64,000 bases of DNA from Gammaproteobacteria bacterium (GCA_032250735.1 JAVVEP010000008.1:1775-65774); one strand, 5' to 3'. Positions 1 through 12,025 are shown, counted from the stretch's first letter. Notes: generated by a model not told the origin, from the letters alone. Made by a program: numbers and translations.

Positions 1-1398
1 GCCGGCACTGGTGACTCGCACAAATTCCGGCGTAGTGCGCATCTTGTCAATCGTCGCGCAGCCGGTATAACCCATGCTGGAACGAATACCGCCGAGCAGC
101 TGATGGACCACCGGCGCCAGCGGGCCCTTGAAGGGCACGCGGCCTTCAATACCTTCTGGCACCAGCTTGTCGGCCTTGCTGCCTTCCTGGAAATAACGGT
201 CGCTGGAGCCCTCGGCACCGGTCATGGCCCCCAGCGATCCCATCCCACGATAGGATTTGTAGGAACGCCCCTGAAACAGCTCCACCTCACCCGGCGCCTC
301 CTCGGTGCCCGCAAACATGCTGCCGATCATGATGGAATAGGCGCCGGCCACCAGGGCCTTGGCTACATCGCCGGAGTAGCGGATACCACCGTCGGCGATC
401 AGGGGCACGCCGGTGCCGATCAGCGCAGTCGCCACGTTGTCGATCGCGGTGATCTGCGGTACGCCGACGCCGGCCACGATACGGGTGGTGCAGATGGAAC
501 CGGGACCAATGCCCACCTTCACACCGTCGGCGCCGGCCGCCACCAGGGCCCTGGCCGCATCAGCGGTGGCGATATTGCCGCCGATCACCTGCACCTGCGG
601 GAAATTCTTCTTGACCCAGCTGACGCGATCCAGCACGCCCTGCGAATGACCGTGGGCGGTGTCCACCACCACCACGTCCACCCCGGCCTCGACCAGGGCC
701 GCAACGCGCTCTGCGGTGCCGTCGCCGGTACCCACCGCCGCGCCCACCCGCAGCCGGCCCTGGCTGTCCTTGCAGGCATTGGGATATTCCGAGGCCTTCT
801 GGATGTCCTTGACGGTGATCAGGCCGCGCAGCCGAAAATTATCATCGACCACCAGCACCTTCTCTATGCGGTAATTGTGCAGCAGGGCCAGCACTTCGTC
901 GTTAGTGGCCCCCTCTTTTACCGTCACCAGTTTGTCTTTACCGGTCATGATGCTGGAAACGGGGCTGTCGAAGCGGGTCTCGAAGCGCAGATCACGCCCG
1001 GTGACGATACCGACCAGTTCCTCGCCATCCACCACCGGCACGCCGGAGATATTGTGGGCGCGGGTCAGGGCCAGTACGTCACGGATACTGGCATTGGGGT
1101 TCACCGAAATGGGGTCCTTGATCACCCCGCTCTCGTATTTCTTCACCAGCCGCACCTGTTCCGCCTGCTGCTCGCCGGTCATATTTTTGTGAATGATGCC
1201 GATACCGCCCTCCTGCGCCATGCTGATGGCCAGGCGTGCCTCGGTCACAGTGTCCATGGCGGCGGAAATCAGCGGAATATTCAGGGTGATCTCCCGTGTC
1301 AGTTGGGTGACCAGGCTCACTTCCTTGGGCATGACGGTAGAATGGGCGGGAATCAGTAAAACATCATCGAAAGTAAGGGCTTCTTGAGCTATACGCAT
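1..1398 (-). CDS. guaB: IMP dehydrogenase (3' end runs off window start)
   Basis: Minus-strand translation from ATG at 1398 reads [24 protein letters not shown]...[10 protein letters not shown]...CBS region...[15 protein letters not shown], typical IMPDH. The listed + ORF 103..1359 (G/A/H-rich) is its antisense shadow. Confidence 0.9.
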
Positions 1399-1644
1399 GA
1401 GCGGGATTCCAAATAGGGCCAGAAGTGGGTGGGGCGCAGATTATATAAGCTGGATGGGTAGCGGGCAAACTACTCGGCCCGTTAGGCCCGTTTCAGGCTT
1501 GATCTGCGCAGGGGTTGTGTGATTAAGTAGCGCTCGTGTATAAGAATTACCTACAATCTCAAGGTAACAGCTAGTGATAACACGCCGTTTTCCGCTTCAG
1601 GCAACCGTCTGGAAGGAAAGTAAATACGCATCGGAGGAGGAATA

Positions 1645-1968
1645 ATGAACAAATCTTTGATTTTTGGTGCCCTGATCTTCGCCCTCAGTGGTTGCTCAAT
1701 GTTTAGCGGTGGCGACTCTGCAGGTTCCGCTAACGCCGCTGCCGCCAATTCGGCTATCGCCGCTGCTGAGGCCGCGCTGGAAAAGGCCCGTGGCGTTGAG
1801 GGTGAATGGCGTGATGCCGACAAGAAGATGCTCAAGGCCGCCAAGGCTGCTGCCAGCAAGGGTGAGTTTGAAGAGGCGATCAAGCTGGCCGACAAGGCCA
1901 AGTTTGAGGGCGAAATGGGCTACACACAGGCCATGCAACAGAAGGACGCTGGACCCTGGTTGTTCTAA
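1645..1968 (+). CDS. small lipoprotein (Ala/Lys-rich, helical)
   Basis: GGAGGAGG SD 6 nt upstream. N-terminus MNKSLIFGALIFALSGCS is a lipobox signal peptide. Followed by a strong hairpin terminator. Confidence 0.6.
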   Translation: MNKSLIFGALIFALSGCSMFSGGDSAGSANAAAANSAIAAAEAALEKARGVEGEWRDADKKMLKAAKAAASKGEFEEAIKLADKAKFEGEMGYTQAMQQKDAGPWLF

Positions 1969-2048
1969 CGCCGGTTTTTTGGGGACGGCCTTAGCGTAAC
2001 GGTACTATCAGTACCGGCCCCGTTGTCGGCCCGCTCTAAAAGATCACC

Positions 2049-2086
2049 AAAAAGGCAGACTGCCCCGGCAGACTGCCTTTTTTTAT
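2049..2086 (+). terminator. intrinsic terminator (A-run/GC hairpin/T-run)
   Basis: aaaaaggcagactgccccggcagactgccttttttt: near-perfect inverted arms followed by T7 run, directly downstream of lipoprotein gene. Confidence 0.8.
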
Positions 2087-2127
2087 GCCTCACGTTCGCG
2101 ACAGCCTTCAACCACCAAAATCACGCA

Positions 2128-2300
2128 GATCGGGATACACTATGCCCATGCCGCAGACGCCAGCCCCAGAATTGACCCACGCACCCGAGCGCAAGATATA
2201 CAGCGTTTCGATGCTGATTTACCCCGTGCCGGTGCAAGGGGCGGAGGCGCCACCCTCCATCGTCGAGGCCATGCACCGCCATTTTCATCTCAGACAATGA
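2128..2300 (+). pseudogene. xseA remnant (5' end fused to an internal xseA piece; mosaic, non-functional)
   Basis: 2128-2212 is ~90% identical to the xseA start region at 8442-8530 (MPQTPAPE..EREIYSVSML). 2213-2285 matches xseA 8990-9060 (LIYPVPVQGVEAPPAIVEA). The reading frame ends in TGA overlapping the ATG of the next gene (ATGA at 2297-2300). Confidence 0.8.
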
Positions 2301-3139
2301 AAATCGCATACTGCGGCTATGACTTCTTCAGCGAGTGTCTGCAGGCATTATTGTCCAGGGGCGACGATGTCTATCGCGTGTTCACCTTCGAGTGCGATAA
2401 CCGTTTTGATTTCAATCACAACATAACCGAAATCAGCCGGCAATATTCTCTGCCGTTAACGGATCGACCAATCGGCAAAAACGACCTGGAACAATTGCGG
2501 CAGGAAGGTTGCGAGCTGGTGATCACCGCAGGCTACCGCTACAAGGTTCCGGACTTGTCCTCAGTCGGTATCAAAGGCATCAATATCCACCCCACTCTGT
2601 TGCCGGTGGGCAGGGGACCCTGGCCGCTTCCGTGGACGATTTTATCCGGCCAGCAACGCAGTGGCGTGACGATACACAAACTGACTCCGGACTTTGATGC
2701 GGGCGACATCCTGGTGCAGCGCGAGTTTGCGCTGGAAGCCAATGAAAACCTTGAGTCTCTCAGCGCCAAAACCCAACTCCAGGCCAAGGCGATGCTGACC
2801 GATCTCATGGATAATTTTACGGACGCGTGGCAAAGCGCCCGGCCGCAGGGGGAGGAATACAGTGCCTGGCCACGGCCTTCCATCGCCGATCGCACCCTGG
2901 ATTGGAATGCCGGCGTGGCGAAGCTGGATACCCTCTGCCGGGCTTTCGGCAAAATGGGATGTTATGGAAAATTCGATGGCAAAATCTGGATTGTCTACAG
3001 GCTCGTCGCCTGGCCGGCCCATCACGATTACGAGAGCGGCGCGGTCGTGCACCAGACGAACACAGAAATGATCGTGGCGGCCGCTGAAGGCCTTGTCAGC
3101 CTTCAGTATTTTGAACCTGCATCGTTGATAGCAGGCTAG
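2297..3139 (+). CDS. formyltransferase-family protein (Fmt/ArnA-N-like catalytic domain, no Fmt C-terminal domain)
   Basis: 280 aa with HPTLLPVGRGPWPLPWTILSG...GVTIHKLTPDFDAGDIL, the formyl-transferase SLLP/His/Asp catalytic signature. Lower GC than flanks. Confidence 0.75.
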   Translation: MKIAYCGYDFFSECLQALLSRGDDVYRVFTFECDNRFDFNHNITEISRQYSLPLTDRPIGKNDLEQLRQEGCELVITAGYRYKVPDLSSVGIKGINIHPTLLPVGRGPWPLPWTILSGQQRSGVTIHKLTPDFDAGDILVQREFALEANENLESLSAKTQLQAKAMLTDLMDNFTDAWQSARPQGEEYSAWPRPSIADRTLDWNAGVAKLDTLCRAFGKMGCYGKFDGKIWIVYRLVAWPAHHDYESGAVVHQTNTEMIVAAAEGLVSLQYFEPASLIAG

Positions 3140-3153
3140 CGGCCAGTGGTGCA

Positions 3154-4929
3154 ATGACTCATAAATTTGAACGATACCTGGCGTGGCAGAAACGGATCGC
3201 GCGGTTTTTTCTGCCCTATTTAAAGCCGGACCATACCAAGCTGTATCTCCTGAGCGCCTTCAGCCTGCTCATGACCGCCACCAATGCCTTCTTGATCTGG
3301 AAACTCGGCACGGCCGTGTCGCAGATCAGCGGAGGAGAATTCGGCCAGCTGAATAATACCTTGCTGATGATCGCCGCGCTGGCTTTGCTTAACCAGGTGC
3401 TACGTATTGCCTACGCGTATGTCTACCAGCGCCTAAGCCTCGCCTTCGTCGACAGGCTCAGGGGCAAAATGTTCGAGCACATCATGGAGGTTTCGGTTCC
3501 CATTCTGCAGCGCTTCAAGAAGGGCGACTTGATGGCCCGACTGAGCAGCGATGTGGACCGTGCCCTGACCTATGTGATTAATCTGCCACTCAACCTATTT
3601 GAGAACATCACTGTATTTGTTGCCTATGCCGTTGTGCTGCTATGGATCGACTGGAAGTTATCTCTGATTGCGCTGACCATGGCCCCCCTCTTTTTTCTGT
3701 CCCAGTTATATGTGGCGCCAAAAAGCGGCGAAATTTCCCGCCAATTCACCAAGGAACGGGTCGAGCTGGCCAACATCGAGGAGCAGACGCTGAGTAATTT
3801 GCGGGGCATCAGCACCTTCAATAGCGAGCTGTTCATGCGCGATACGCACAAGACCCAGTTTGATAGCGCGCGGAAGTGGGCGTTGAAAACCAGAGAGATT
3901 CAGATTCTCTATAACTCCCTGTTTACCGCGCTACTGTATTTTGCGGGTGTCGTAGTCGTCTACAGCGGCATCGCGGAAATCGAGTCGGGACAATTAGCCA
4001 TTGGTGCGCTGGTCAGCTTTCTGATTTATATCCGCAACATCACCGGGCCCATTCGCACCCTGGCGCGCATACCGATTACGTTGCAATCCGACCGCGTTGC
4101 GGCGGAGCGTCTGATGGAAATCCTGGCAATGGAGCCCGCCGTCGAGGACAGAGAAAGCGGCCGGTCGCTGCGTGTGCCGCACGGTGACATTCTGTTCAAG
4201 GATGTGTCGTTCACCTACCCGAATCAGGACCGGCCGGTATTTTCCCGGCTTTCCGCTCAGATCCGTGCCGGTGAATCCGTTGCCCTGGTCGGGCCGAGCG
4301 GGGCCGGCAAGTCTACCTTTGCCGGTTTGTTGTTACGCTTCCATGATCCACAGCAGGGATCCATCTGCATCGACGGCGTGGACATCAAGTCCGTCAGCCT
4401 GCGATCGCTGCGCAATCAGATCTCCATCGTCTGGCAGGAACCGTTTTTGGTCAACGGCAGCATTCGGCAGAATTTTTACCTGGCAAAACCGGATGCGACG
4501 GAAGCGCAGATGCAGGATGCCTGCAACTCCAGTTATGCCTGGGAATTCGTCGCCGGCCTGGAGCATGGTTTGGACACTGTCATCGGCGCCAACGGCATTG
4601 AGTTATCGGCCGGGCAACGGCAACGTCTGGCCATTGCCCAGGCCTTTCTGCGTGATACGCCGCTATTGATTCTGGATGAGGCCTCATCCGCGCTCGACAG
4701 CCGATCCGAGCAAATGGTTGCGGACGCCTTGCAGGCCCTGCGCAAGCAACGCACCACGGTGATTATCGCCCATCGCTTTTCTTCCATCCGCAGTGTGGAC
4801 AGGATTCTCTATATCGATGGAAAGGGTTGCCTGACAGTGGGCACGCACCAGGAGTTACTTGATCAGCATAGTGAATACAAGGCTGCCGTCGATTGGCAAA
4901 TGGCGGAGCGGCCAGGGGATGTCGGTTAA
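3154..4929 (+). CDS. ABC exporter, fused permease-ATPase (MsbA/ABCB type), no peptidase domain
   Basis: 591 aa. N-terminal 6-TM region, then Walker A GPSGAGKST, signature LSAGQRQRLAIAQAF, Walker B LLILDEASSALD. 15 nt downstream of formyltransferase (same operon). Confidence 0.9.
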   Translation: MTHKFERYLAWQKRIARFFLPYLKPDHTKLYLLSAFSLLMTATNAFLIWKLGTAVSQISGGEFGQLNNTLLMIAALALLNQVLRIAYAYVYQRLSLAFVDRLRGKMFEHIMEVSVPILQRFKKGDLMARLSSDVDRALTYVINLPLNLFENITVFVAYAVVLLWIDWKLSLIALTMAPLFFLSQLYVAPKSGEISRQFTKERVELANIEEQTLSNLRGISTFNSELFMRDTHKTQFDSARKWALKTREIQILYNSLFTALLYFAGVVVVYSGIAEIESGQLAIGALVSFLIYIRNITGPIRTLARIPITLQSDRVAAERLMEILAMEPAVEDRESGRSLRVPHGDILFKDVSFTYPNQDRPVFSRLSAQIRAGESVALVGPSGAGKSTFAGLLLRFHDPQQGSICIDGVDIKSVSLRSLRNQISIVWQEPFLVNGSIRQNFYLAKPDATEAQMQDACNSSYAWEFVAGLEHGLDTVIGANGIELSAGQRQRLAIAQAFLRDTPLLILDEASSALDSRSEQMVADALQALRKQRTTVIIAHRFSSIRSVDRILYIDGKGCLTVGTHQELLDQHSEYKAAVDWQMAERPGDVG

Positions 4930-4972
4930 TCAAGCAAGAGCAGAAAATCCGCTCCGTTGACGAGGCAAATAA

Positions 4973-5000
4973 AAAGGGCATTGCCTTGGCAATGCCCTTT
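4973..5000. terminator. bidirectional hairpin terminator between convergent genes
   Basis: aaagggcattgccttggcaatgcccttttg: 11-bp perfect stem flanked by A-run and T-run. A second hairpin ctcagcgg...ccgctgag lies at 5010-5040. Confidence 0.7.
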
Positions 5001-5076
5001 TGTGGACGCTCAGCGGACTAACTGAAATCTACCGCTGAGTGTGGTGCATCACGCGCTAATGCGTGATGCGGGCCGG

Positions 5077-5289
5077 TTAGGCGCCACCGCCCATACCACC
5101 ACCCATACCGCCGCCCATACCACCAGCGGCTGCGGCTGGTGCCGGGGCTGGTGCTGGAGCTGGTGCCGGAGCTGCTGCAGCGGGTGCCGGAGCGGCGGCC
5201 ATGCCGCCCATACCACCACCCATGCCACCACCCATGCCACCCCCCATACCGCCGCCCATACCACCACCGCCTCCCATTCCTCCACCCAT
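5077..5289 (-). CDS. 70-aa low-complexity protein composed only of Gly, Met, Ala, Pro: (MGGG)7-AAAPAPAAAAPAPAPAPAPAPAAAA-(GGM..MGGG)3-A
   Basis: AAGGAGAG SD 5 nt upstream of the ATG at 5289; TAA at 5077 followed by a hairpin. Third-position variation among GGN and GCN/CCN codons is synonymous in this frame but nonsynonymous in the opposite-strand His/Thr frame. A longer GTG start at 5424 would add a 45-aa non-repetitive N-terminal extension. Confidence 0.5.
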   Translation of the reverse strand: MGGGMGGGGGMGGGMGGGMGGGMGGGMGGMAAAPAPAAAAPAPAPAPAPAPAAAAGGMGGGMGGGMGGGA

Positions 5290-5913
5290 AACGCTCTCCT
5301 TTGCAATATCCGAATATTGATTAAGTATGTGTTTCACGTTCATGACCGAGTATCCGTGGCCTGTGAAACACGGCTCCTGATTGCCGATTTTATTGCTGAT
5401 TGATTGGTCGGCAATCGCGCGCACGAGACCACGCGCTTCCGGAGACTAGGATATTTATGTCCAATGGTCAACATTTGATGGTCAAAATCCACGATAAAGC
5501 GGTCGGCCTAATACCGGTATTTTTTCGATGCTTATAACCCGGCAATAGCCCGGCAATCACTCAGGGGCGATGATGTTGCGAGCGAGACGTGGGTACAACA
5601 GTGTGATTATTAAAGTATTTTAGTCCTGCACCGGCTTTCGTCAGCGCTATCTCGTTGTACCGGCCAGTTGTGCCTACCAATTGTGCCGGCCAAATTCACC
5701 CATTCTCATCTCCGACTGTTATTCTGGCCTGTGTGAAATTACATTATGATTTTTCTAGCTCTGGCCGGACTTTCCGGCTTTGTGCAGAACCGAGGGGGAA
5801 TTTGCTGGCTTGCCGGACCTGCTTCGCATACCATTTTTATGGTTATAGGGGTGCGCACAATGGCGAGTTAGGAAGGCATATCCCATCGAATCCACACGCA
5901 AAGGTCTTCACTC

Positions 5914-6711
5914 ATGTCAATTGGAATAGAAACGGCCGGACGCCCGGCGCCACTCATTCTTCCCACCACCGAACCCGTGGCGGATTTTCATCCCGAGCCC
6001 GACGATTTCTGCTTCTGTAACAGCGGCAAGCGATTCGGTGGTTGTTGCGGATCCACCGACCTGGTGCGCCCGCCGCCTTATGGGCTGTTCATGTTCGAAA
6101 ATTTTCTCGATCCCAAGCAGGCCCGGGAGTTGACCGACTATGCCGAGCAGTGCGAGGGCGAGCGCCTGATGGTGATCGATAATATACAGTCCACCCCCGA
6201 CAACATCGTCAAGGTGGAAGACCCGCGGCGTATTACCGAACGGGTCAAGTTGGGTGCCAGACGCAAGGAAATCCAGGCGATGATGGGGCGGGCTTTTATC
6301 GATCTGGCGCAACGGTGTGTCGGCGCCAAACTGGATTGGTACGAGCTGCCCGATTTGATGCGGTACCGGCAAGGGGGATTTTATGTCCGGCACGCCGACA
6401 GCCAGAACAAGGATGAGGCGACCAACACGTGGCGCAAGGTGATCGATCGTGATCTCAGCATGCTCATCTACTTAAACGATGGCTATGAAGGCGGCGAGCT
6501 GAGCTTTTACAAATTCAATTATCAGATCCGGCCGCGGGCCGGTGCGGCGGTCCTGTTCCCCTCGGACCATCGCTATTTGCACCAGGCCGAAACCCTTAAA
6601 AGCGGTGTCCGCTATGCCCTGGTTAGCTGGGCCTCCGTGCAAGGGGTGCCGAAGATTGCGTCGCAGCCGCCCCAATGCGCCGTGCCTGTGGAATATAAGC
6701 CGGGTCAATAG
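5914..6711 (+). CDS. SEC-C motif / 2OG-Fe(II) oxygenase (PKHD/prolyl-4-hydroxylase-like)
   Basis: N-terminal CFCNSGKRFGGCCGS is a SEC-C zinc motif. C-terminal HADSQ...GGELSF...VLFPSDHRYLHQAETLKSGVRYALVSW matches the HxD...H...R facial triad/2OG-binding pattern of the P4H/PKHD hydroxylase fold. Confidence 0.8.
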   Translation: MSIGIETAGRPAPLILPTTEPVADFHPEPDDFCFCNSGKRFGGCCGSTDLVRPPPYGLFMFENFLDPKQARELTDYAEQCEGERLMVIDNIQSTPDNIVKVEDPRRITERVKLGARRKEIQAMMGRAFIDLAQRCVGAKLDWYELPDLMRYRQGGFYVRHADSQNKDEATNTWRKVIDRDLSMLIYLNDGYEGGELSFYKFNYQIRPRAGAAVLFPSDHRYLHQAETLKSGVRYALVSWASVQGVPKIASQPPQCAVPVEYKPGQ

Positions 6712-7889
6712 CCCAGCAAATCGCCGGGCAGTCCGTCCTCGGGGTAATCTGCTGCCAAAAGTTTTCGCGCCAATTCCTCCGCCGCCGCCAGCTCCGCCTG
6801 ATGTGCGGACAATAGTGCTGTTATTTCTCCGTCCCGTTGTTGCGGGCTGTAGGTGAATTTACTGTTCTTGGAATAGACGCCGAGCAGCGGCGCCATGGCC
6901 TGCTCAAGCGTTGTCCCCTCGATCGGCATCAAACCGAACCAGTCTGCGCATCGTGCAACGGCGGTGTAGGGATTGGCGAGCATGTGATTGAACTCGAGAC
7001 TGCGTACGCGGGCCGGCATGCTGCGGTAGGCCTTGTGGAACAGTGCGATGTTGTACGACCAATACAATGCCGCCAGTTCCCCATAGGCGTCCTCGGCCAC
7101 CGTGAAGTCCGGGCCGAGCCCCAGCAGTTGATTGATGGGCTGGCGCAACGCGGCGTAGCGCTGCGCGATCCACTGCTTGCGGTTATTCGCCTTGAGGCAG
7201 CCGGCGAGAAATTCTTGCAGCGGGGTGTGCATAAACAGCAGAGGGGCGTCCGCATGCCGCTCGATCATGGCCAGCATGAGGGGGTTGGCATAATCGTTGG
7301 CCTTGACCACCGCCATCTGCTGCGCATCAAAACGGCGTGACAACAATGCCATGACGCGCCGGTACCAGGCATCTTTATCCTGGGGGGAATTGGCCGGATT
7401 GCGCAGATATGCCAGCAGGTTGCCCAGCAGTTCCGGCTCGCGGATCGGCAGCGTGTGATACGCCGCGTCGAGGGCCTGGGACATGAGTGTTGAACCGCAA
7501 AAGGCGGTGTGAAAGATGAAGGCGGTTTGTTGACCGGCGATTTTGTCACAGGCCGACCGTAGCCATGCCAGGTCAGTTTGGATAATGCAGCTACCTTTGA
7601 TGCGTCCCGGGTCCATAAACACGCTGTCCCGATACGTCTGCGGCGACATCATGATGAAGTAGCTCTGGTATTCGGCAAAATTTACCCGCGCCGGAAACAG
7701 GGCGGGGCTGGCATCGATGTGCTCCAGCGCCTCCTGCAATTGCGCAGTCAGCGGCTCGTCTGCGACAACACCTTCGGTGGTTATAGCGGCCACGATGTGG
7801 GGCTGCGAGCGCTCGGCCTTGCCGCAACAGGCTCCGTAGACCAGGCCGCTGCCGCACGGGCAAGGCATCTCACTCGATTCGATATCCAT
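6705..7889 (-). CDS. SEC-C motif protein with ~370-aa C-terminal domain of unknown function (possibly P-loop/sulfotransferase-like; unverified)
   Basis: True start MDIESSEMPCPCGSGLVYGACCGK (ATG 7889, SD AAGGGAGA). The ORF-track N-terminal extension to 8144 is read-through. Converges on and overlaps the previous gene by 7 nt. HTAFCGST resembles a PAPS-binding loop, but only weakly. Confidence 0.6.
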   Translation of the reverse strand: MDIESSEMPCPCGSGLVYGACCGKAERSQPHIVAAITTEGVVADEPLTAQLQEALEHIDASPALFPARVNFAEYQSYFIMMSPQTYRDSVFMDPGRIKGSCIIQTDLAWLRSACDKIAGQQTAFIFHTAFCGSTLMSQALDAAYHTLPIREPELLGNLLAYLRNPANSPQDKDAWYRRVMALLSRRFDAQQMAVVKANDYANPLMLAMIERHADAPLLFMHTPLQEFLAGCLKANNRKQWIAQRYAALRQPINQLLGLGPDFTVAEDAYGELAALYWSYNIALFHKAYRSMPARVRSLEFNHMLANPYTAVARCADWFGLMPIEGTTLEQAMAPLLGVYSKNSKFTYSPQQRDGEITALLSAHQAELAAAEELARKLLAADYPEDGLPGDLLGY

Positions 7890-7921
7890 TGTTATTCTCC
7901 CTTCTCTATCCTGGCGAGCCG

Positions 7922-8340
7922 TCAATAGCCCAGGTTCGGCGCCAGCCAATACTCCGCGAACATGCGCGTCATGTCCTTGCGTTGCGCGTAGTCGTCGACC
8001 TGATCCTGGTTGATTTTGCCTACCGTGAAATAGGCGGCCTCGGGGTGCGAAAAATAGAAACCGCTGACGGCGGCGGTGGGCAACGAGGCCATGGCCTCGG
8101 CGAACCAGCTGCCGGTGCTTTCCTTCACCGCCATGAGATCCCACAGCAGGTTCTTTTCGGTGTGCTCGGGGCAGGCAGGATAACCGGGCGCGGGGCGAAT
8201 GCCCTGGTATTTCTCATAGATGAGATCGGTGTTGTCGAAGTACTCGTTCGGCGCGTAGCCCCAGATCTCCCTGCGCGCCTTCCGGTGCAAAAGTTCAGCG
8301 AAGCTCTCGGCGAAACCGCGAGGAAGTATAAACCCCCTGT
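7922..8340 (-). pseudogene. methionine synthase (metH) C-terminal fragment, ~139 codons, 5' truncated
   Basis: Translation ...HRKARREIWGYAPNEYFDNTDLIYEKYQGIRPAPGYPACPEHTEKNLLWDLMAVKE...VSGFYFSHPEAAYFTVGKINQDQVDDYAQRKDMTRMFAEYWLAPNLGY* is the conserved reactivation-domain C-terminus of B12-dependent MetH. Similarity stops abruptly near 8340, where lipoprotein-like sequence begins. Confidence 0.75.
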
Positions 8341-8365
8341 TCGCTCTAAAACCACCCCGGACCAC

Positions 8366-8440
8366 GCTGAAAAGGCCCGTGGCGTTAAGGGTGAATGGCG
8401 TAATGCCGACAAGGCCAAGTTTGAGGGCGAAATAGGCTAC
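8366..8440 (+). pseudogene. remnant of the lipoprotein gene (internal and 3' deletions) abutting xseA
   Basis: EKARGVKGEWRNADKAKFEGEIGYA corresponds to lipoprotein residues at 1778-1935, with the ~100 nt between two gccgacaag repeats deleted. Confidence 0.7.
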
Positions 8441-8455
8441 GCATCGCGATACACT

Positions 8456-9829
8456 ATGCGCATGCCGCAGACACCAGCCCCTGAATCGACCCTTGCACCC
8501 GAGCGCGAGATCTACAGCGTTTCGATGCTGAACAATGCCGCGCGCGACCTGTTGGAGCGGGAATTTCCGCTGATCTGGGTGGAGGGTGAGATCTCCAACC
8601 TCGCCCGCCCCGCCTCCGGCCACCTCTATTTCAGCCTCAAGGATGCCGACGCCCAGCTGCGCTGCGCCATGTTCAAGCTGCGCAACCGGCTGGTGGGTTT
8701 CCGCCCCGACAATGGTCAGCAGGTACTGGTGCGCGGACGGCTCAGCCTCTATCCGGCGCGGGGTGACTACCAGCTCATTGTCGAACACATGGAAGAGGCC
8801 GGCGACGGCGCCCTGCGCCGCCAGTTCGAGCTACTCAAACAACGCCTGGGTCACGAAGGCCTGTTCGATGCCGGGAGCAAACAACCCCTACCGGCCCTGC
8901 CCCGCCGACTGGGGGTGATCACCTCACCCAGCGGGGCGGCCATCCGCGACATCCTCAGCGTGCTCAGGCGGCGCTTTCCAAGCATCCCGGTGCTGATTTA
9001 CCCCGTGCCGGTGCAAGGGGTGGAGGCGCCACCCGCCATCGTCGAGGCGCTGCGGACGGCGAATACCCGCCGGGAATGCGATCTGCTGATCCTGGCCCGC
9101 GGCGGTGGCTCACTGGAAGACCTGTGGGCCTTCAACGACGAGGCGGTGGCCCGCGCCATCCACGCCAGCACCCTTCCGGTGGTCTGCGGCGTGGGCCATG
9201 AGGTCGACGTCACCATCGCCGATTTTGTGGCCGATGTGCGTGCGCCCACGCCCTCGGCGGCGGCCGAGCTGGTCAGCCCGGATCGCAACGAGTGGCTGGA
9301 CAGTTTTGCGGCCTGGCAGCAGCGCCTGACACGCAGTTGGCAGACCCAGCTGGCCCGGCGTCAGCAACACCTGGACTGGCTACGCCGGCAACTGAAACAC
9401 CCGGGACAGCGACTGCGTGAACGGGCCCAACGGCTGGATGAGCTGGAGCAGCGTCTCAGGCTGGCGCGGCTGGGCCGACTGCGCCAGCTGCAGGCCCGGC
9501 TGAACACCCTGCGCGCGCGGCTGTATGGCCACTCGCCGGTGCAGCCGCTGCGCGCGACCCGCCTGCGACTGGACAGCCTGCAGCACCGCAGTCAGCGCGC
9601 CATTCGCGCCAGACTGACCCAACAGCGCGCCCGGCTTGGCAATCTCAGCCGGGCGCTGGATGCGGTCAGCCCGCTGGCCACCCTCGGCCGCGGCTACGCC
9701 ATCGTGCAGAAACCCGACGGCAAGGTCGTGCGCCGCGTCGACGAGGTGTGCGTGGGGGAGCGCATCAACACCCGGCTCGGTAGCGGCCGTCTCGACTGTC
9801 GTGTCGAGGCCGTGCACGGGGAGGATTGA
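8456..9829 (+). CDS. xseA: exodeoxyribonuclease VII large subunit
   Basis: MRMPQTPAPE...IWVEGEISNLARPASGHLYFSLKDADAQLRCAMF (OB fold)...GVITSPSGAAIRD...ARGGGSLEDLWAFNDE, then coiled-coil Arg/Gln-rich tail. ORF-track start at 7889 is upstream read-through. Confidence 0.9.
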   Translation: MRMPQTPAPESTLAPEREIYSVSMLNNAARDLLEREFPLIWVEGEISNLARPASGHLYFSLKDADAQLRCAMFKLRNRLVGFRPDNGQQVLVRGRLSLYPARGDYQLIVEHMEEAGDGALRRQFELLKQRLGHEGLFDAGSKQPLPALPRRLGVITSPSGAAIRDILSVLRRRFPSIPVLIYPVPVQGVEAPPAIVEALRTANTRRECDLLILARGGGSLEDLWAFNDEAVARAIHASTLPVVCGVGHEVDVTIADFVADVRAPTPSAAAELVSPDRNEWLDSFAAWQQRLTRSWQTQLARRQQHLDWLRRQLKHPGQRLRERAQRLDELEQRLRLARLGRLRQLQARLNTLRARLYGHSPVQPLRATRLRLDSLQHRSQRAIRARLTQQRARLGNLSRALDAVSPLATLGRGYAIVQKPDGKVVRRVDEVCVGERINTRLGSGRLDCRVEAVHGED

Positions 9830-9835
9830 AGGCCT

Positions 9836-10738
9836 GTGAATACCGCCATCAAATGGCTGATTTACTTTGGCCTGCTGCTCACCACCGGCCTGCCGGCGAT
9901 CGCCCTGGCGGCAACGCCCGCTGCCAGCCCCCTGCCCCAGACCGCGGCCGTGCCCGGCGGTATCGTCACGCTGAATCTGGGCCCCGCCGAGGGCCCGGCG
10001 CCGGTGGTGCATTACCAGCAGCGGCGGGTGATGGTGGTGCAGGCCGACGGGCACTGGCAGGCGGTGGTCGGCATCCCCCTCACTGCCCGCAGTGGCCCGC
10101 AGAACCTCAGGCTGGCCGGTCGCAGCCAGACCGTGGAGTTTGAGGTCCAGGCCAAGGACTATGCCGAGCAGCGACTCACCATCAAAGACAAACGCAAGGT
10201 CAATCCCAACCCGGATGACCTGACCCGCATTCGTGGCGAACGGGGGCGCATTGTTAACGCGCTACGTCACTGGCAATTTCAGGATAGCGTGGACACCCGC
10301 TTCATCCTGCCGGTGACAGGCCGACTCAGCAGCCCCTTCGGCCTGCGGCGTTTTTTCAACGAGCAACCCCGCAAACCCCACAGCGGCATCGATATCGCCG
10401 CGCCGGAGGGCACGCCCATTGTCGCCCCCGCCGCCGGGCGCATCATCGAAACCGGGGACTTTTTCTTCAACGGCAACTCGGTGTTCATCGACCATGGCCA
10501 GGGGCTGGTGACGATGTACTGCCACATGAGTCGGGTGGAGGTGAAGGCCGGACAGCGGGTCGCGCGTGGCGAGGCCATCGGCGCCGTGGGCCAGACCGGT
10601 CGCGTCACCGGCCCGCACCTGCACTGGAGTGTCAGCCTCAACGATGCGCGGGTGGATCCGGGCCTGTTTTTCGAGGATCTCGAGACACTGCTCACGCCCG
10701 CCGCGGCCCCGCTGAGCGAGGCCCGCAGCGCCCCCTGA
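9836..10738 (+). CDS. M23 family metallopeptidase (LytM/NlpD-like), membrane anchored
   Basis: N-terminal TM segment; HSGIDIAAPEGTPIVAPAAGRI...GPHLHWSV are the HxxxD and HxH M23 motifs. Confidence 0.85.
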   Translation: MNTAIKWLIYFGLLLTTGLPAIALAATPAASPLPQTAAVPGGIVTLNLGPAEGPAPVVHYQQRRVMVVQADGHWQAVVGIPLTARSGPQNLRLAGRSQTVEFEVQAKDYAEQRLTIKDKRKVNPNPDDLTRIRGERGRIVNALRHWQFQDSVDTRFILPVTGRLSSPFGLRRFFNEQPRKPHSGIDIAAPEGTPIVAPAAGRIIETGDFFFNGNSVFIDHGQGLVTMYCHMSRVEVKAGQRVARGEAIGAVGQTGRVTGPHLHWSVSLNDARVDPGLFFEDLETLLTPAAAPLSEARSAP

Positions 10739-10811
10739 TCCCCCTTGCGCCGACGCAGGCGGGCCGGTAAGGTTGCGCGCCACAGCAACTCACACGAACC
10801 ACGCAGTCACC

Positions 10812-11609
10812 ATGAAAAAATTTGCCCAAACCCTGGTCGAAAAAACCGCCTTTGAATATTTCATCGTCGGACTCATCCTGTTCAACGCCGTGATCCTCGG
10901 CCTGGAGACCTCGCCCGAAATTGTCGCCGAGTACGATAGCTGGCTGCACTTTGGCAATCAGTTTATCCTCGCCATCTTTATCCTCGAGGCGGCACTGAAG
11001 ATCATCGCCGTCGCACCCCGGCTCAGGCTCTATTTCGGCAACGGCTGGAACCTGTTCGACTTCACCGTGGTGGTGCTCTCGCTGATTCCCGCCAGCGGCG
11101 AATACGCGATGATCGCCCGCCTGGCACGGCTGCTGCGGGTCGCGCGGCTGATCTCTACCATCCCCGAGCTGCGGTTGATCATTTCCACCCTGGTGCGCTC
11201 CATCCCCAGCATGGGCCACGTGCTGATGTTGATGGGGGTAATCTTCTACATCTACGCGGTGGCTGGCTATCACCTGTTCCACGAACACGATCCTGAACAC
11301 TGGCGCAATCTGGGTATGTCGTTGCTCACCCTGTTCCGCGTCGTTACCCTCGAAGACTGGACCGACGTGATGTACACCGCCATGGAGATGCACTACCTGA
11401 GCTGGATGTACTTCGTCAGCTTCGTGGTGGTGGGTACCTTCGTGGTCATCAACCTGTTCATCGCCGTGGTGCTCAACAACCTCGAGGAGGCCAAACAGGA
11501 ACAACTGGCGGCGCTACAGACACCGGCCAGCAAGGACGAGATCCTCAAGGAATTGCAGCAGACACAGGAAGCGCTCAGGCGACTCCAGGCGAGGTTGGAA
11601 AAACAGTGA
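10812..11609 (+). CDS. bacterial voltage-gated ion channel (BacNav/NaChBac family), pore filter TLEDWTD
   Basis: 266 aa. S4 segment with Arg every third residue (RLARLLRVARLIS). Pore helix FRVVTLEDWTDVMY. Single 6-TM domain. Confidence 0.85.
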   Translation: MKKFAQTLVEKTAFEYFIVGLILFNAVILGLETSPEIVAEYDSWLHFGNQFILAIFILEAALKIIAVAPRLRLYFGNGWNLFDFTVVVLSLIPASGEYAMIARLARLLRVARLISTIPELRLIISTLVRSIPSMGHVLMLMGVIFYIYAVAGYHLFHEHDPEHWRNLGMSLLTLFRVVTLEDWTDVMYTAMEMHYLSWMYFVSFVVVGTFVVINLFIAVVLNNLEEAKQEQLAALQTPASKDEILKELQQTQEALRRLQARLEKQ

Positions 11610-12025
11610 GCCGCGATACCATCAGCAACCGCATCGACATCAGCCTGGAGTTCTATTTCAAGGGGGAACGCTATACGCCCACCGCCAGCATCGAGCTGGA
11701 TGGGCTCATCGGCAACGACGACGGCCTGCCCTCGTTTCACCAGATCCTGGCCAGGCGCAACGATATCGACCTGCTTTCCTACCACTATGAGATCATGCTG
11801 GAGGAGCCGGTGCGGGTCACCGGCGCAGAGGGCCTGGTGGCAGACTATGTGACCGATGGCCGGCTGGATGAGGCGGGTTTTCTACAGGCCTGGCGCGAAC
11901 AGGGGATGTCGGCGCAACTGCAGGCCATCGCCCAACAGTATTTAGCGATCGATGATTTGCAGAAAAACCCAGCATTGAAAGATGCCTTAACCGCCGCTTT
12001 TCAACTTGGCAGAGAGATCGGCTAA
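11606..12025 (+). CDS. hypothetical protein translationally coupled to the channel gene
   Basis: Start overlaps the channel stop (GTGA). 139 aa, no recognisable motif. Confidence 0.5.
   Translation: MSRDTISNRIDISLEFYFKGERYTPTASIELDGLIGNDDGLPSFHQILARRNDIDLLSYHYEIMLEEPVRVTGAEGLVADYVTDGRLDEAGFLQAWREQGMSAQLQAIAQQYLAIDDLQKNPALKDALTAAFQLGREIG

What the first reader, a model, noticed from the sequence alone, without database searches (positions are those of the whole stretch)
2291..8365. Low-GC cassette: formyltransferase + ABC exporter + Gly/Met/Ala-Pro-only mini-protein + SEC-C prolyl-hydroxylase-like oxygenase + second SEC-C protein
Five genes of visibly lower G+C than the flanks sit between direct repeats of host DNA. 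The set contains a candidate substrate, the 70-aa ORF with a central (AP)n tract. The modifying enzymes would be a 2OG-Fe(II) oxygenase of the prolyl-4-hydroxylase/PKHD fold and a formyltransferase-domain protein. A fused MsbA-type ABC exporter without a peptidase domain is also present. A second protein carries the same N-terminal SEC-C zinc motif as the oxygenase. Ala-Pro repeats are the classic hydroxylation (and later O-glycosylation) module of plant arabinogalactan peptides, so Pro hydroxylation of the AP tract followed by export is a concrete hypothesis. No catalogued RiPP class that I know of combines these parts. This is my best candidate for an undescribed modification/export system in the window.
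Basis: partly seen in the sequence, partly recalled or inferred. Interest (0 to 1): 0.85.

Follow-up and report, generated by a model that had tools for sequence, protein, structure and literature searches.

The report
Gly-Met/Ala-Pro mini-protein modification-export cassette
A gene cluster conserved in many uncultured Gammaproteobacteria encodes a 70-residue protein made only of Gly, Met, Ala and Pro beside a prolyl-hydroxylase-like enzyme, a sulfotransferase-like enzyme and an export pump. It looks like an undescribed route to a modified, exported peptide.

Summary
Window 2291-8313 carries a formyltransferase, an MsbA-type ABC exporter, a 70-aa ORF (MGGG)n-(AP)n-(MGGG)n, a 2OG/Fe(II) oxygenase with a SEC-C motif and a second SEC-C protein. 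Patchy duplicates of host DNA flank it. The low G+C is real but unremarkable.

The cassette recurs in at least 15 related loci. The SEC-C pair sits tail-to-tail in about 20 loci. At least 14 loci have a Gly/Met + Ala/Pro mini-ORF between the oxygenase and the exporter. Each that I inspected starts at an ATG after a strong ribosome-binding site, and third codon positions vary freely.

The oxygenase's nearest structures are protein prolyl hydroxylases, led by the PBCV-1 enzyme that hydroxylates Pro-Ala repeats. The "unknown" SEC-C protein has a sulfotransferase fold closest to tyrosylprotein sulfotransferases, but a Phe replaces the usual catalytic Lys/Arg. The formyltransferase is accessory.

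Most likely this is a leaderless, RiPP-like pathway: Pro hydroxylation of the AP tract, possibly a second transfer, then ABC export. No chemistry is shown. No curated family (NCBIfam, Rfam) and no paper in the searched library covers it.

Caveats: the nearest relative lacks the mini-ORF, three loci have the enzyme pair alone, and one genome carries the AP+MG module as the tail of a secreted protease.

The parts
1780..2274 (+). Left copies of duplicated host DNA: segments of the intact SAXB-like lipoprotein gene (1780-1824, 1888-1926), plus a decayed xseA stub made of the 5' end (2129-2217) and an internal piece (2202-2274). The stub reads as the chimeric ORF 2085-2300.
   Evidence: Repeat families D2, D4, D5 and D6, 89-96% identity. 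Weak Exonuc_VII_L match for ORF 2085-2300 and SAXB match for 1645-1968.
2297..3139 (+). Formyltransferase of Fmt/ArnA type (N and C domains). It is an accessory tailoring enzyme, not a core part.
   Evidence: Pfam Formyl_trans_N 1.3e-16 and Formyl_trans_C 3.8e-6. Scores fall below the NCBIfam cut-offs for fmt and ArnA. The INIHPTLLPVGRG motif is read directly. Present in 7 of about 16 loci.
3154..4929 (+). Half-size type-IV ABC exporter (MsbA/ABCB-like) without a peptidase domain.
   Evidence: Pfam and NCBIfam; PDB relatives MsbA, BmrA and ABCB1. Orthologues at 58-61% identity lie beside the mini-ORF in the related loci.
4962..5012 (.). Bidirectional intrinsic terminator between the convergent ABC gene and the mini-ORF.
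   Evidence: 13-bp stem flanked by an A-run and a U-run; -23.2 kcal/mol, z -4.9, and 0 of 200 shuffles fold as well.
5077..5289 (-). Mini-protein gene, 70 aa: MGGGMGGGGGMGGGMGGGMGGGMGGGMGGM-AAAPAPAAAAPAPAPAPAPAPAAAA-GGMGGGMGGGMGGGA. It has no leader, no charged residue, and no Cys, Ser, Thr or Tyr.
   Evidence: AAGGAG RBS. Codon-position entropy 1.11/1.46/1.97 bits. Counterparts in the same position in L001, L004-L008, L010, L011, L013/L206, L204, L208, L209 and L210.
5290..5913 (.). AT-rich (48.6% G+C) divergent intergenic region between the mini-ORF and the oxygenase gene. One weak sigma-70-like site lies at 5414-5387 (-).
   Evidence: No conserved element other than the RBS appears in an alignment of 14 upstream regions. 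No Rfam match.
5914..6711 (+). 2OG/Fe(II) oxygenase of the prolyl-hydroxylase branch, with an N-terminal SecA-type zinc knuckle (C33, C35, S37, C44, C45).
6705..7889 (-). 394-aa protein: SEC-C zinc knuckle, a beta-rich N-domain and a sulfotransferase-fold domain. Invariant loop HTAFCGSTL; also invariant are E151, K196, R237, R244 and K341.
7922..8314 (-). Remnant of the 3' end of metH (last ~130 codons), co-imported with the cassette. It marks the right edge of the imported DNA.
   Evidence: NCBIfam methionine synthase 8.9e-56. In L211 an ORF ending in the same MetH C-terminal sequence lies directly upstream of the SEC-C sulfotransferase-like gene, and window 6711-8313 aligns to it at 78%.
8369..8531 (+). 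Right copies of the duplicated host DNA: a lipoprotein-gene fragment (8369-8443) followed by the start of intact xseA (8456-9829).
   Evidence: Exonuc_VII_L 3.9e-116.

Best explanation
This is a horizontally acquired copy of a conserved cassette that makes, tailors and exports a leaderless, low-complexity ribosomal peptide. I describe the proposed steps in order and mark each as shown or inferred.

1. The 70-aa Gly/Met-Ala/Pro mini-protein is translated from its own strong RBS. That the gene is real and conserved is shown. Translation itself is inferred.
2. The cytoplasmic P4H-like 2OG/Fe(II) oxygenase hydroxylates prolines of the central (Ala-Pro)n tract. This is inferred from its fold neighbours, its intact catalytic residues, and its fixed position next to the Pro-containing mini-ORFs.
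3. The sulfotransferase-fold protein, always encoded tail-to-tail with the oxygenase, adds a second group. An O-sulfate on the new hydroxyl is the simplest guess. It is weakly inferred, because the catalytic Lys/Arg of the PAPS loop is a Phe.
4. Both enzymes carry the same SecA-type Cys4 knuckle. It probably brings them to a common partner (each other, the peptide, or ribosome/SecB).
5. Lineage-specific extras (formyltransferase here; methyltransferase or PLD-like protein elsewhere) decorate the product further.
6. The MsbA-like ABC half-transporter moves the product across the inner membrane without leader cleavage.

The flexible (M,G)n blocks and the stiff (AP)n block should both favour polyproline-II or extended conformations, the conformation in which P4Hs are reported to bind substrate (recalled, not tested here). 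The physiological role of the exported product is not established. It could be a soft-metal-binding Met/His peptide or an abductin-like matrix peptide.
For: Conserved synteny:
- The sulfotransferase-like gene and the oxygenase gene are convergent in about 20 loci.
- 43 contig lengths are shared between the two independent homologue lists.
- A mini-ORF lies between the oxygenase and the ABC gene in the window and in L001, L004, L005, L006, L007, L008, L011, L013/L206, L204, L208 and L210. It is also present in L010 and L209, whose contigs end before an ABC gene could be seen.

The mini-ORF is coding:
- In each of the 13 mini-ORFs inspected except L007, the ATG follows an AGGAG-type RBS; the L007 start is unclear.
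- Third-position entropy is 1.9-2.0 bits against 1.1-1.5 bits at positions 1 and 2.
- A terminator follows the window copy.

The oxygenase is P4H-like:
- Catalytic H-x-D...H...R is invariant.
- The PBCV-1 enzyme hydroxylates Pro-Ala-Pro-Lys repeats (PMC3634087).

Pro tract tracks the oxygenase: every mini-ORF next to the oxygenase has a Pro tract. The Pro-less MG-only mini-ORFs lie next to a different gene.

Mini-ORF tracks the exporter: a mini-ORF is present in 12 of the 14 loci in which an ABC gene is seen. It is absent from the three loci where the pair is followed by other genes (L003, L012, L207).

Gly/Met tails adopt PPII (bioRxiv 10.1101/2024.05.27.596059).
Against: - There is no chemical evidence for any modification.
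- L211, the nearest relative (about 80% nucleotide identity), has the oxygenase and ABC genes 130 bp apart with no mini-ORF.
- L003, L012 and L207 keep the enzyme pair without the ABC gene or the mini-ORF. The pair therefore has a function that does not require this peptide.
- The sulfotransferase-like protein has Phe where PKSGTT/PRSGTT loops carry Lys/Arg. It may not use PAPS at all.
- No peptide has Tyr, Ser or Cys, so any sulfation would need an unprecedented acceptor.
- The genes alternate in orientation, so they are not one operon.
- No leader, RRE or protease was found, apart from an M50B/ClpS protein in L208.
- The MGGGMGGGMG motif by itself is common in unrelated proteins.
Confidence: 0.55

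Rival explanations
1. The two SEC-C enzymes are general modifiers of other proteins. Their SecA-type knuckle docks them on ribosomes, SecB or SecA, and they act on nascent or export-bound proteins, or on a ribosomal or translation factor as PPHD, OGFOD1 and YcfD do. On this reading the mini-protein and its ABC exporter form a separate, loosely linked module, or the mini-protein is just one of several clients.
For: - Loci with the pair only: L003, L012 and L207. L211 lacks the mini-ORF.
- The SecA metal-binding domain binds SecB and ribosomes (abstract of 10.1101/613315).
- Structural neighbours include the EF-Tu hydroxylase PPHD and the ribosomal-protein hydroxylases OGFOD1 and Tpa1.
- In L012 the same AP/TP linker plus (MGGGG)n module forms the C-terminal tail of a secreted S8 protease 6 kb from the pair.
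Against: - Where an ABC gene is present, the mini-ORF is nearly always wedged between it and the oxygenase gene, across lineages whose sulfotransferase-like protein is only 42-76% identical to the window's.
- No housekeeping target is linked to the cluster.
- The family is confined to a narrow set of uncultured Gammaproteobacteria: about 150-180 90%-clusters. That is unlike a housekeeping modifier.
Confidence: 0.2
2. The mini-protein is exported unmodified and works through its composition. It could be a periplasmic or extracellular soft-metal (Cu(I)/Ag(I)) sponge, an oxidant sink built from Met thioethers, or an abductin-like elastic matrix peptide. The neighbouring enzymes would then serve another substrate.
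For: - Met makes up 15-25% of the residues, and the peptides have no Cys.
- A His sits at the MG-to-AP junction or inside the MG blocks in five lineages: MGGHAPAP, MGHAPAP, MGGHGAAP, MGGHAAAP and MGGHGGGMGHG.
- Abductin's elastic domain is a Gly/Met repeat, GGFGGMGGGX (PMC13052691).
- MG-only mini-ORFs exist away from the oxygenase.
Against: - It does not explain why a P4H-like enzyme is fixed next to the Pro-containing versions.
- No copper or oxidative-stress genes or regulators recur in the flanks.
- No metal-responsive element was found.
Confidence: 0.12
3. The cassette modifies and flips a lipid, glycan or small molecule. The argument is that the MsbA-like flippase, the ArnA-like formyltransferase, the PLD-like enzyme and the glycolipid-type sulfotransferase all have relatives in envelope chemistry. 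The mini-ORF would then be an unrelated passenger.
For: - The ABC protein scores best with MsbA models.
- The formyltransferase scores nearly as well with ArnA as with Fmt.
- L001 has a PLD-like gene in the formyltransferase position.
- L003 and L207 lie beside phosphonate (PEP mutase) genes.
Against: - The oxygenase's sequence and structure neighbours are overwhelmingly protein hydroxylases.
- The accessory enzymes vary between loci, while the mini-ORF is the constant partner of the ABC gene.
- No sugar-nucleotide or lipid biosynthesis genes recur in the flanks.
Confidence: 0.08
4. The mini-ORF is not translated. It would be a chance open frame in a GC-rich simple repeat, or a regulatory element.
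For: - Other frames of the repeat are also open.
- Gene callers sometimes pick the wrong frame (L206).
- phmmer finds no homologues because of the composition.
Against: - An ATG directly after an AGGAG-type RBS in 12 of the 13 mini-ORFs inspected; the L007 start is unclear.
- The stop codon falls right after the repeat.
- Codon positions 1 and 2 are fixed while position 3 is near random.
- Amino-acid composition is conserved although the DNA has diverged.
- The ORF is convergent with its neighbour, so it cannot be an attenuator leader.
Confidence: 0.03

Closest known systems
RaxX / RaxST / RaxB of Xanthomonas (sulfated RiPP)
   Same: A ribosomal peptide, a cytoplasmic protein-type sulfotransferase and a dedicated ABC exporter in a Gram-negative bacterium (10.1101/442517, listed).
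   Different: - RaxX is sulfated on Tyr. None of the 14 mini-proteins has Tyr.
- RaxB carries a peptidase domain and removes a leader (abstract). Here there is no leader and no peptidase domain.
- There is no oxygenase in the rax cluster (recalled, not checked).
- The PAPS-loop Lys/Arg is replaced by Phe here.
Plant secreted peptides matured by P4H plus TPST (PSY, RGF, CLE) and arabinogalactan peptides
   Same: The same pair of enzyme folds (prolyl 4-hydroxylase and tyrosylprotein sulfotransferase) acting on short secreted peptides. Non-contiguous Ala-Pro repeats are the classic Hyp module. (General knowledge; plant RiPP review PMC11253845, listed.)
   Different: - The plant enzymes are Golgi/ER membrane proteins acting after signal-peptide entry. 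The enzymes here are soluble cytoplasmic proteins with SecA-type knuckles.
- There is no glycosyltransferase and no Tyr.
- The bacterial peptide is almost pure Gly/Met/Ala/Pro.
Viral and bacterial peptidyl prolyl 4-hydroxylases (PBCV-1 vCPH, B. anthracis P4H, P. putida PPHD)
   Different: - Only 19-23% identity.
- None of them has an N-terminal SEC-C knuckle.
- As far as I recall, none has a genetically linked dedicated substrate, sulfotransferase-like partner or exporter.
Leaderless (class IId) bacteriocins with dedicated ABC exporters; McjD-type exporters
   Same: A peptide made without a leader and exported by an ABC transporter that lacks a peptidase domain (from my own knowledge).
   Different: Those peptides are cationic, amphipathic, helical and unmodified. 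This one has no charged or bulky hydrophobic residue and comes with tailoring enzymes.
Gly/Met-rich sequences: GroEL C-terminal (GGM)n tails and molluscan abductin
   Same: Same composition. GroEL tails adopt PPII helices. Abductin's GGFGGMGGGX domain is an entropic elastomer.
   Different: Those are parts of large proteins with no dedicated enzymes. The resemblance is compositional, not homology: the motif occurs in many unrelated proteins.
SecA metal-binding domain (SEC-C) proteins: SecA, YecA/AscA, YchJ
   Same: The CxCxSGx8CC knuckle. The best PDB matches of both proteins' N-termini are YchJ and SecA peptides. The SecA domain binds SecB and ribosomes.
   Different: Here the knuckle is N-terminal and fused to catalytic domains. 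Its partner is unknown. The AF2 confidence (pLDDT above 90 across the knuckle of the oxygenase) suggests it may simply pack on the enzyme.

Membership tests
RiPP biosynthetic gene cluster | Short precursor gene encoded next to the tailoring enzymes | tested here: met
   70-aa ORF at 5077-5289. Counterparts in at least 13 further loci, always beside the oxygenase gene.
RiPP biosynthetic gene cluster | Leader or follower peptide and a recognition element (RRE) in the enzymes | tested here: not met
   The peptide starts directly with the repeat. Pfam and NCBIfam find no RRE. The shared SEC-C knuckle might play that role, but this is untested.
RiPP biosynthetic gene cluster | Leader protease or peptidase-containing transporter | tested here: not met
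   The ABC protein has only ABC_membrane and ABC_tran. The only protease seen is an M50B/ClpS protein in L208.
RiPP biosynthetic gene cluster | Modified peptide product observed | not testable with these tools
   Needs mass spectrometry.
Peptidyl prolyl 4-hydroxylase (P4Hc / 2OG-FeII_Oxy_3) | Double-stranded beta-helix fold with the H-x-D...H iron triad and a basic residue for 2OG | tested here: met
Peptidyl prolyl 4-hydroxylase (P4Hc / 2OG-FeII_Oxy_3) | Hydroxylates peptidyl proline | not testable with these tools
PAPS-dependent sulfotransferase | Sulfotransferase (P-loop-like alpha/beta) fold | tested here: met
PAPS-dependent sulfotransferase | 5'-phosphosulfate-binding loop P-[KR]-x-G-[ST]-T with its catalytic Lys/Arg | tested here: not met
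   The loop is the invariant A-F-C-G-S-T-L, with Phe130 where the Lys/Arg should be. The register follows from the Sulfotransfer_3 match starting at residue 131 = profile position 10. The canonical motif itself is recalled from memory.
PAPS-dependent sulfotransferase | 3'-phosphate-binding Arg/Ser and a catalytic base | tested here: inconclusive
   Invariant E151 lies 21 residues after the loop, which is the spacing I recall for TPST2 R78 to E99. K196, R237, R244, S340 and K341 are plausible counterparts. No residue-level structural alignment was available.
SEC-C / SecA metal-binding domain | C-x-C-x-S-G-x8-C-[CH] zinc (or iron) knuckle | tested here: met
   Sulfotransferase-like protein: CPCGSGLVYGACCG, Pfam SEC-C 1.6e-4. 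Oxygenase: CFCNSGKRFGGCCG, Cys and Ser invariant; the profile hits the YchJ knuckle at E 0.006; PF02810 is precomputed on many homologues.
SEC-C / SecA metal-binding domain | Binds SecB or the ribosome | not testable with these tools
   Known for SecA; unknown here.
Methionyl-tRNA formyltransferase / ArnA | Score above the equivalog cut-off | tested here: not met
   fmt 86 bits against 201.5 needed; ArnA 79 against 777. It is a formyltransferase of the same superfamily with an unknown acceptor.
Genomic island | Atypical composition, flanking repeats, foreign gene remnants and mobility genes | tested here: inconclusive
   Flanking duplicated target DNA and a co-imported metH 3' remnant matching the L211 arrangement support acquisition. 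G+C is not an outlier, and there is no integrase or transposase in 2291-8365.

The most novel reading that the evidence does not exclude
The SecA-type knuckles dock a prolyl hydroxylase and a sulfotransferase-like transferase at the ribosome/SecB/SecA export route. There they modify Pro-rich tracts flanked by Gly/Met repeats while the chain is still cytoplasmic. The substrates would be both stand-alone mini-proteins, which leave through the ABC pump, and C-terminal AP+MG tails of Sec-exported enzymes such as the L012 S8 protease. This would be a bacterial, cytoplasmic counterpart of the eukaryotic secretory-pathway P4H + TPST pair. The AP+MG module would be a new kind of protein tag. The product could carry a residue I know of no report of in proteins (O-sulfo- or otherwise O-substituted hydroxyproline).
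Probability: 0.12. Interest if true: 0.9.

Novelty: new variant of a known kind. Interest (0 to 1): 0.72.

Why it matters
If the model is right, this is a new class of ribosomal peptide product with four unusual properties. The precursor has no leader and uses four amino acids. The chemistry (peptidyl-Pro hydroxylation plus a sulfotransferase-fold transfer) is, as far as I know, described together only in plant and animal secretory pathways. The recognition device (a SecA-type zinc knuckle shared by both enzymes) has not been described for tailoring enzymes. The sulfotransferase-like family has an altered donor loop, with about 2,700 50%-identity clusters and no assigned function.

It also gives bacterial P4H-like enzymes, most of which lack a known substrate, a genetically linked candidate substrate that can be tested directly in vitro.

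Gene callers miss or mis-frame the mini-ORF, so similar systems are probably under-reported.

Tried and rejected
1. A homologue search with the mini-protein returned nothing. 8,000 word-sharing candidates were collected but none passed HMMER's composition correction, so one protein search was wasted.

2. I scanned metagenome contigs for DNA encoding MGGGMGGGMG. It returned 120 stretches, mostly GroEL tails, planctomycete proteins with a VYPVGDLV-(MG)n motif, and eukaryotic Gly-rich proteins. The motif alone is therefore not diagnostic. Only L149 and L184 were mini-ORFs.

3. Rfam searches of the window (1-12000) and of nine related loci found no riboswitch or leader in the cassette. The only hit was a cobalamin riboswitch in L013, which appears to belong to the adjacent TonB-dependent receptor gene.

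4. An alignment of 14 regions upstream of mini-ORFs showed no shared operator or promoter beyond the RBS. The sigma-70 scan was not above chance.

5. Flanking genes beyond the core were scanned for a recurrent extra partner, such as Met, Cu, sulfate-activation or glycosyltransferase genes. None recurs.

6. The S8 protease next to a distant SEC-C homologue in L017 has no AP/MG tail. The protease link therefore rests on L012 alone.

7. The idea that the ORF is an attenuation leader was rejected. It is convergent with the next gene and has its own terminator.

8. The idea that low G+C marks the island was rejected as weak. The metH remnant and the target duplication are better evidence.

9. Exact-sequence look-ups of the window's own oxygenase and SEC-C proteins found no contig in the indexed collection.

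Full report
WHAT IS THERE

Between guaB with a SAXB-like lipoprotein gene (left) and xseA (right), the window carries five genes in four transcription directions:
- a formyltransferase with Fmt/ArnA-type N and C domains, 2297-3139 (+);
- an MsbA/ABCB-type half ABC exporter with no peptidase domain, 3154-4929 (+);
- a 70-codon ORF, 5077-5289 (-);
- a 2OG/Fe(II) oxygenase, 5914-6711 (+);
- a 394-aa SEC-C protein, 6705-7889 (-).

The 479-aa ORF listed for the last gene is an over-extension. The public annotation of the identical protein uses the 394-aa start.

The mini-ORF reads MGGGMGGGGGMGGGMGGGMGGGMGGGMGGM-AAAPAPAAAAPAPAPAPAPAPAAAA-GGMGGGMGGGMGGGA. AAGGAG lies 6 nt before its ATG. A 13-bp hairpin with flanking A and U runs lies between it and the convergent ABC gene (-23.2 kcal/mol, z -4.9).

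HOW IT GOT THERE

The flanking direct repeats are real. Pieces of the lipoprotein gene (1780-1926) recur at 8369-8443. The xseA 5' end (2129-2217) and an internal piece (2202-2274) recur at 8443-8531 and 8981-9053. Identities are 89-96%. The left copy is thus an intact lipoprotein gene plus a decayed xseA stub, and the right copy is a lipoprotein-gene fragment plus intact xseA.

Just inside the right border lies the last ~130 codons of metH (7922-8314, -). In the closest relative, L211, an ORF ending in the same MetH C-terminal sequence lies directly upstream of the SEC-C gene. Window segments 2291-4916, 5898-6709 and 6711-8313 align to L211 at 78-81%. The cassette was therefore imported from a relative together with a metH tail.

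The composition argument is weak. The island is 56.9% G+C, which is the 24th percentile of 6-kb windows here. There is no mobility gene.

IS THE CASSETTE CONSERVED?

Yes. The 394-aa protein has at least 154 relatives (90%-identity cluster representatives) and the oxygenase at least 181. Almost all come from uncultured Gammaproteobacteria. Forty-three contig lengths are shared between the two top-120 lists.

In fetched loci the two genes are convergent, often overlapping at their stop codons. This holds in L001, L003-L008, L010-L014 and L204-L211. The same tail-to-tail arrangement appears with weaker oxygenase-like matches at about 25% identity in L046 and L069.

A mini-ORF of the same kind lies between the oxygenase and an orthologous ABC gene (58-61% identity) in L001, L004, L005, L006, L007, L008, L011, L013/L206, L204, L208 and L210. 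It is also present in L010 and L209, whose contigs end there.

All of these peptides are (M,G)n followed by (A,P)n, which contains some T and V in two lineages. About half of them have a second (M,G)n block. Five lineages have a His at the junction or inside the MG blocks.

In 12 of the 13 mini-ORFs whose upstream sequence I extracted, the ATG follows an AGGAG-type RBS; the L007 start is unclear. Codon positions 1 and 2 carry 1.1-1.5 bits of entropy, while position 3 carries 1.9-2.0 bits. This is the signature of selection on the Gly/Met/Ala/Pro reading frame.

Accessory genes vary between loci:
- a formyltransferase in the window, L007, L008, L010, L011, L210 and L211;
- a methyltransferase in L204/L205, L208 and L209;
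- a PLD-like protein in L001;
- none in L004-L006 and L013.

WHAT THE ENZYMES ARE

Oxygenase:
- H160, D162, H223 and R233 are invariant.
- The AF2 model has pLDDT 91.9.
- A family profile finds only P3H, P4H and PKHD chains in the PDB, apart from the YchJ SEC-C peptide.
- The PBCV-1 enzyme hydroxylates Pro in Pro-Ala-Pro-Lys repeats (PMC3634087).

Second SEC-C protein:
- It has no significant Pfam domain other than SEC-C, yet its AF2 model is confident (pLDDT 92.2).
- Sequence support is weak but consistent. Sulfotransfer_3 matches below threshold in 9 of 30 members, and there is a SOT18 match over the "YE.L..dP...v..l..FLG" region.
- The donor loop is an invariant HTAFCGSTL. By the register of the Sulfotransfer_3 match, the Lys/Arg of PKSGTT/PRSGTT is a Phe. 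Membership in the PAPS-dependent enzymes is therefore not established.
- The wider family has about 2,700 50%-identity clusters. Only about 20 of them are full-length with the SEC-C N-terminus.

Shared knuckle: both enzymes begin with a CxCxSGx8CC knuckle that matches SecA and YchJ peptides. The SecA domain binds SecB and ribosomes.

MOST LIKELY MECHANISM

I read this as a leaderless, RiPP-like pathway. The peptide is made in the cytoplasm, and its (AP)n tract is hydroxylated by the P4H-like enzyme. The sulfotransferase-fold protein adds a second group, with O-sulfation of the new hydroxyl as the simplest guess. Lineage-specific enzymes add further decoration. The ABC pump then exports the product without cleavage.

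What is shown: the genes, their conservation and linkage, the folds and the catalytic residues. What is inferred: every chemical step, the substrate relationship and the role of the knuckle.

Three observations favour the substrate relationship:
- The mini-ORF is the constant neighbour of the oxygenase and ABC genes, while the accessory enzymes change.
- Every mini-ORF next to the oxygenase contains a Pro tract. The Pro-free MG-only mini-ORFs of L007, L008 and L011 lie next to a different gene, a 900-1050-aa membrane protein with a spermidine-synthase-like domain. That gene is again next to a mini-ORF in the unrelated contig L149.
- Gly/Met and Ala/Pro sequences favour PPII. P4Hs are reported to bind their substrates in that conformation (recalled, not tested here).

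WHAT SPEAKS AGAINST IT

- L211, the nearest relative, has only 130 bp between the oxygenase and ABC genes and no mini-ORF anywhere on its 11-kb contig.
- L003, L012 and L207 have the enzyme pair without the ABC gene or the mini-ORF.
- In L012, a lipoprotein-type secreted S8 protease 6 kb away ends in a Pro/Thr/Ala linker followed by GGMGMGGGGMGGGGMGGGGMGGGGMGM. The module may therefore also be a tail on exported proteins, and the enzymes may have several clients.
- The MGGGMGGGMG motif on its own is common and not diagnostic.
- No regulatory clue was found.

COMPARISON WITH KNOWN SYSTEMS

The nearest bacterial analogue is RaxX/RaxST/RaxB. That system sulfates Tyr and cleaves a leader with a peptidase-ABC transporter; as far as I recall it has no oxygenase. 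The enzyme pair mirrors the plant P4H + TPST maturation of secreted peptides, but here the enzymes are cytoplasmic and there is no Tyr and no glycosyltransferase. Leaderless bacteriocins share the lack of a leader and the ABC export, but nothing else. Neither NCBIfam (June 2026) nor Rfam holds a model for the peptide or the sulfotransferase-like protein. Full-text searches found no description.

VERDICT

This is a real, conserved and apparently undescribed cassette. It needs three amendments:
- the formyltransferase is optional;
- the second SEC-C protein is a sulfotransferase-fold enzyme with an altered donor loop;
- the enzyme pair also exists without the peptide.

Interest 0.72. Confidence in the tailoring-and-export model 0.55.

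Noticed in passing
window 7922-8314 (-): A 3'-terminal remnant of metH (last ~130 codons, ending ...EYWLAPNLGY) sits directly upstream of the SEC-C sulfotransferase-like gene. In L211 an ORF ending in the same MetH C-terminal sequence occupies that position, so the remnant travelled with the cassette.
   Followed up: yes
window 2085-2300 (+): A chimeric 71-aa ORF made of the xseA 5' end fused to an internal xseA piece. It is a decayed duplicate of the insertion target, and it overlaps the formyltransferase start codon.
   Followed up: partly
L012 1557-4151 (+): A secreted S8 subtilase (lipoprotein signal, Big_2 domains) ends in a Pro/Thr/Ala linker plus GGMGMGGGGMGGGGMGGGGMGGGGMGM. It lies 6 kb from an oxygenase/sulfotransferase-like pair that has no mini-ORF or ABC gene. 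This suggests the AP+MG module can serve as a C-terminal tail on exported proteins.
   Followed up: partly
L007 8598-8693, L008 8115-8204, L011 5944-6042, L149 5011-5112: A second class of mini-ORF: 29-33 aa, Met and Gly only in L007, L008 and L011, with a short VPPAPPAP insert in L149. Each lies next to a 900-1050-aa polytopic protein with a spermidine-synthase-like domain (57-75% identical among loci). In L149 an ABC exporter and an AsnB-like gene are also adjacent.
   Followed up: partly
L007 16894-18555 (-), L008 16831-18495 (-): groEL, with its own (GGM)4M tail, lies immediately beyond the two ABC genes of the cassette in two related loci. This is probably coincidence, given one lineage.
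   Followed up: no
L206 12402-12569 vs called gene 12406-12582: The automatic gene call for the mini-ORF is in the wrong reading frame. The window's own mini-ORF could not be found by homology search. Such genes are systematically missed or mis-framed.
   Followed up: yes
L204 (GCA_975901915.1 contig CDLKGN010000091.1): The cassette occurs on an 11.9-kb contig of an assembly labelled Kaarinaea lacus, a Nostocales cyanobacterium. Every other carrier is a gammaproteobacterium, so the contig probably comes from a co-cultured heterotroph. That would give a culture in which the system could be studied.
   Followed up: partly
L003 13152-16722 and L207 683-3436: Two of the loci with the pair only lie beside PEP mutase and phosphonopyruvate-decarboxylase (phosphonate biosynthesis) genes.
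   Followed up: no
L044 7554-12096 (Vulcaniibacterium thermophilum) and other loci L017-L083: Distant relatives of the sulfotransferase-like protein (25-34% identity, same HTAFCGSTL loop, mostly no SEC-C motif) occur in Sphingomonadales and Xanthomonadales/Lysobacterales, including some cultured strains. In L044 the relative sits between a TonB-dependent receptor gene, an ORF with a canonical PRSGTT sulfotransferase loop, and two ORFs that I judged by eye to be 2OG-oxygenase-like (none of the three was domain-scanned).
   Followed up: partly
L013 9649-9885 (-): A cobalamin riboswitch (112 bits) lies just upstream of the SEC-C gene but on the other strand. It appears to control the adjacent TonB-dependent receptor gene rather than the cassette.
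   Followed up: partly
L184 4974-5081 (+) and 5196-6826 (-): An MG-only mini-ORF lies next to two ORFs that I judged from their N-terminal sequences to be a DUF692 (MNIO) / DUF2063-like pair. The orientation is convergent, so the link is unclear.
   Followed up: no
window 2297-7889 and all related loci: Neighbouring core genes alternate in orientation (sulfotransferase-like ->, <- oxygenase, mini-ORF ->, <- ABC), and this order is kept across lineages only 42-50% identical. That is an unusual architecture for a functionally linked set.
   Followed up: partly
L208 13485-14351 (-): A membrane protein combining Peptidase_M50B and ClpS domains is inserted between the mini-ORF and the ABC gene. It is the only candidate processing protease seen in any locus.
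   Followed up: no
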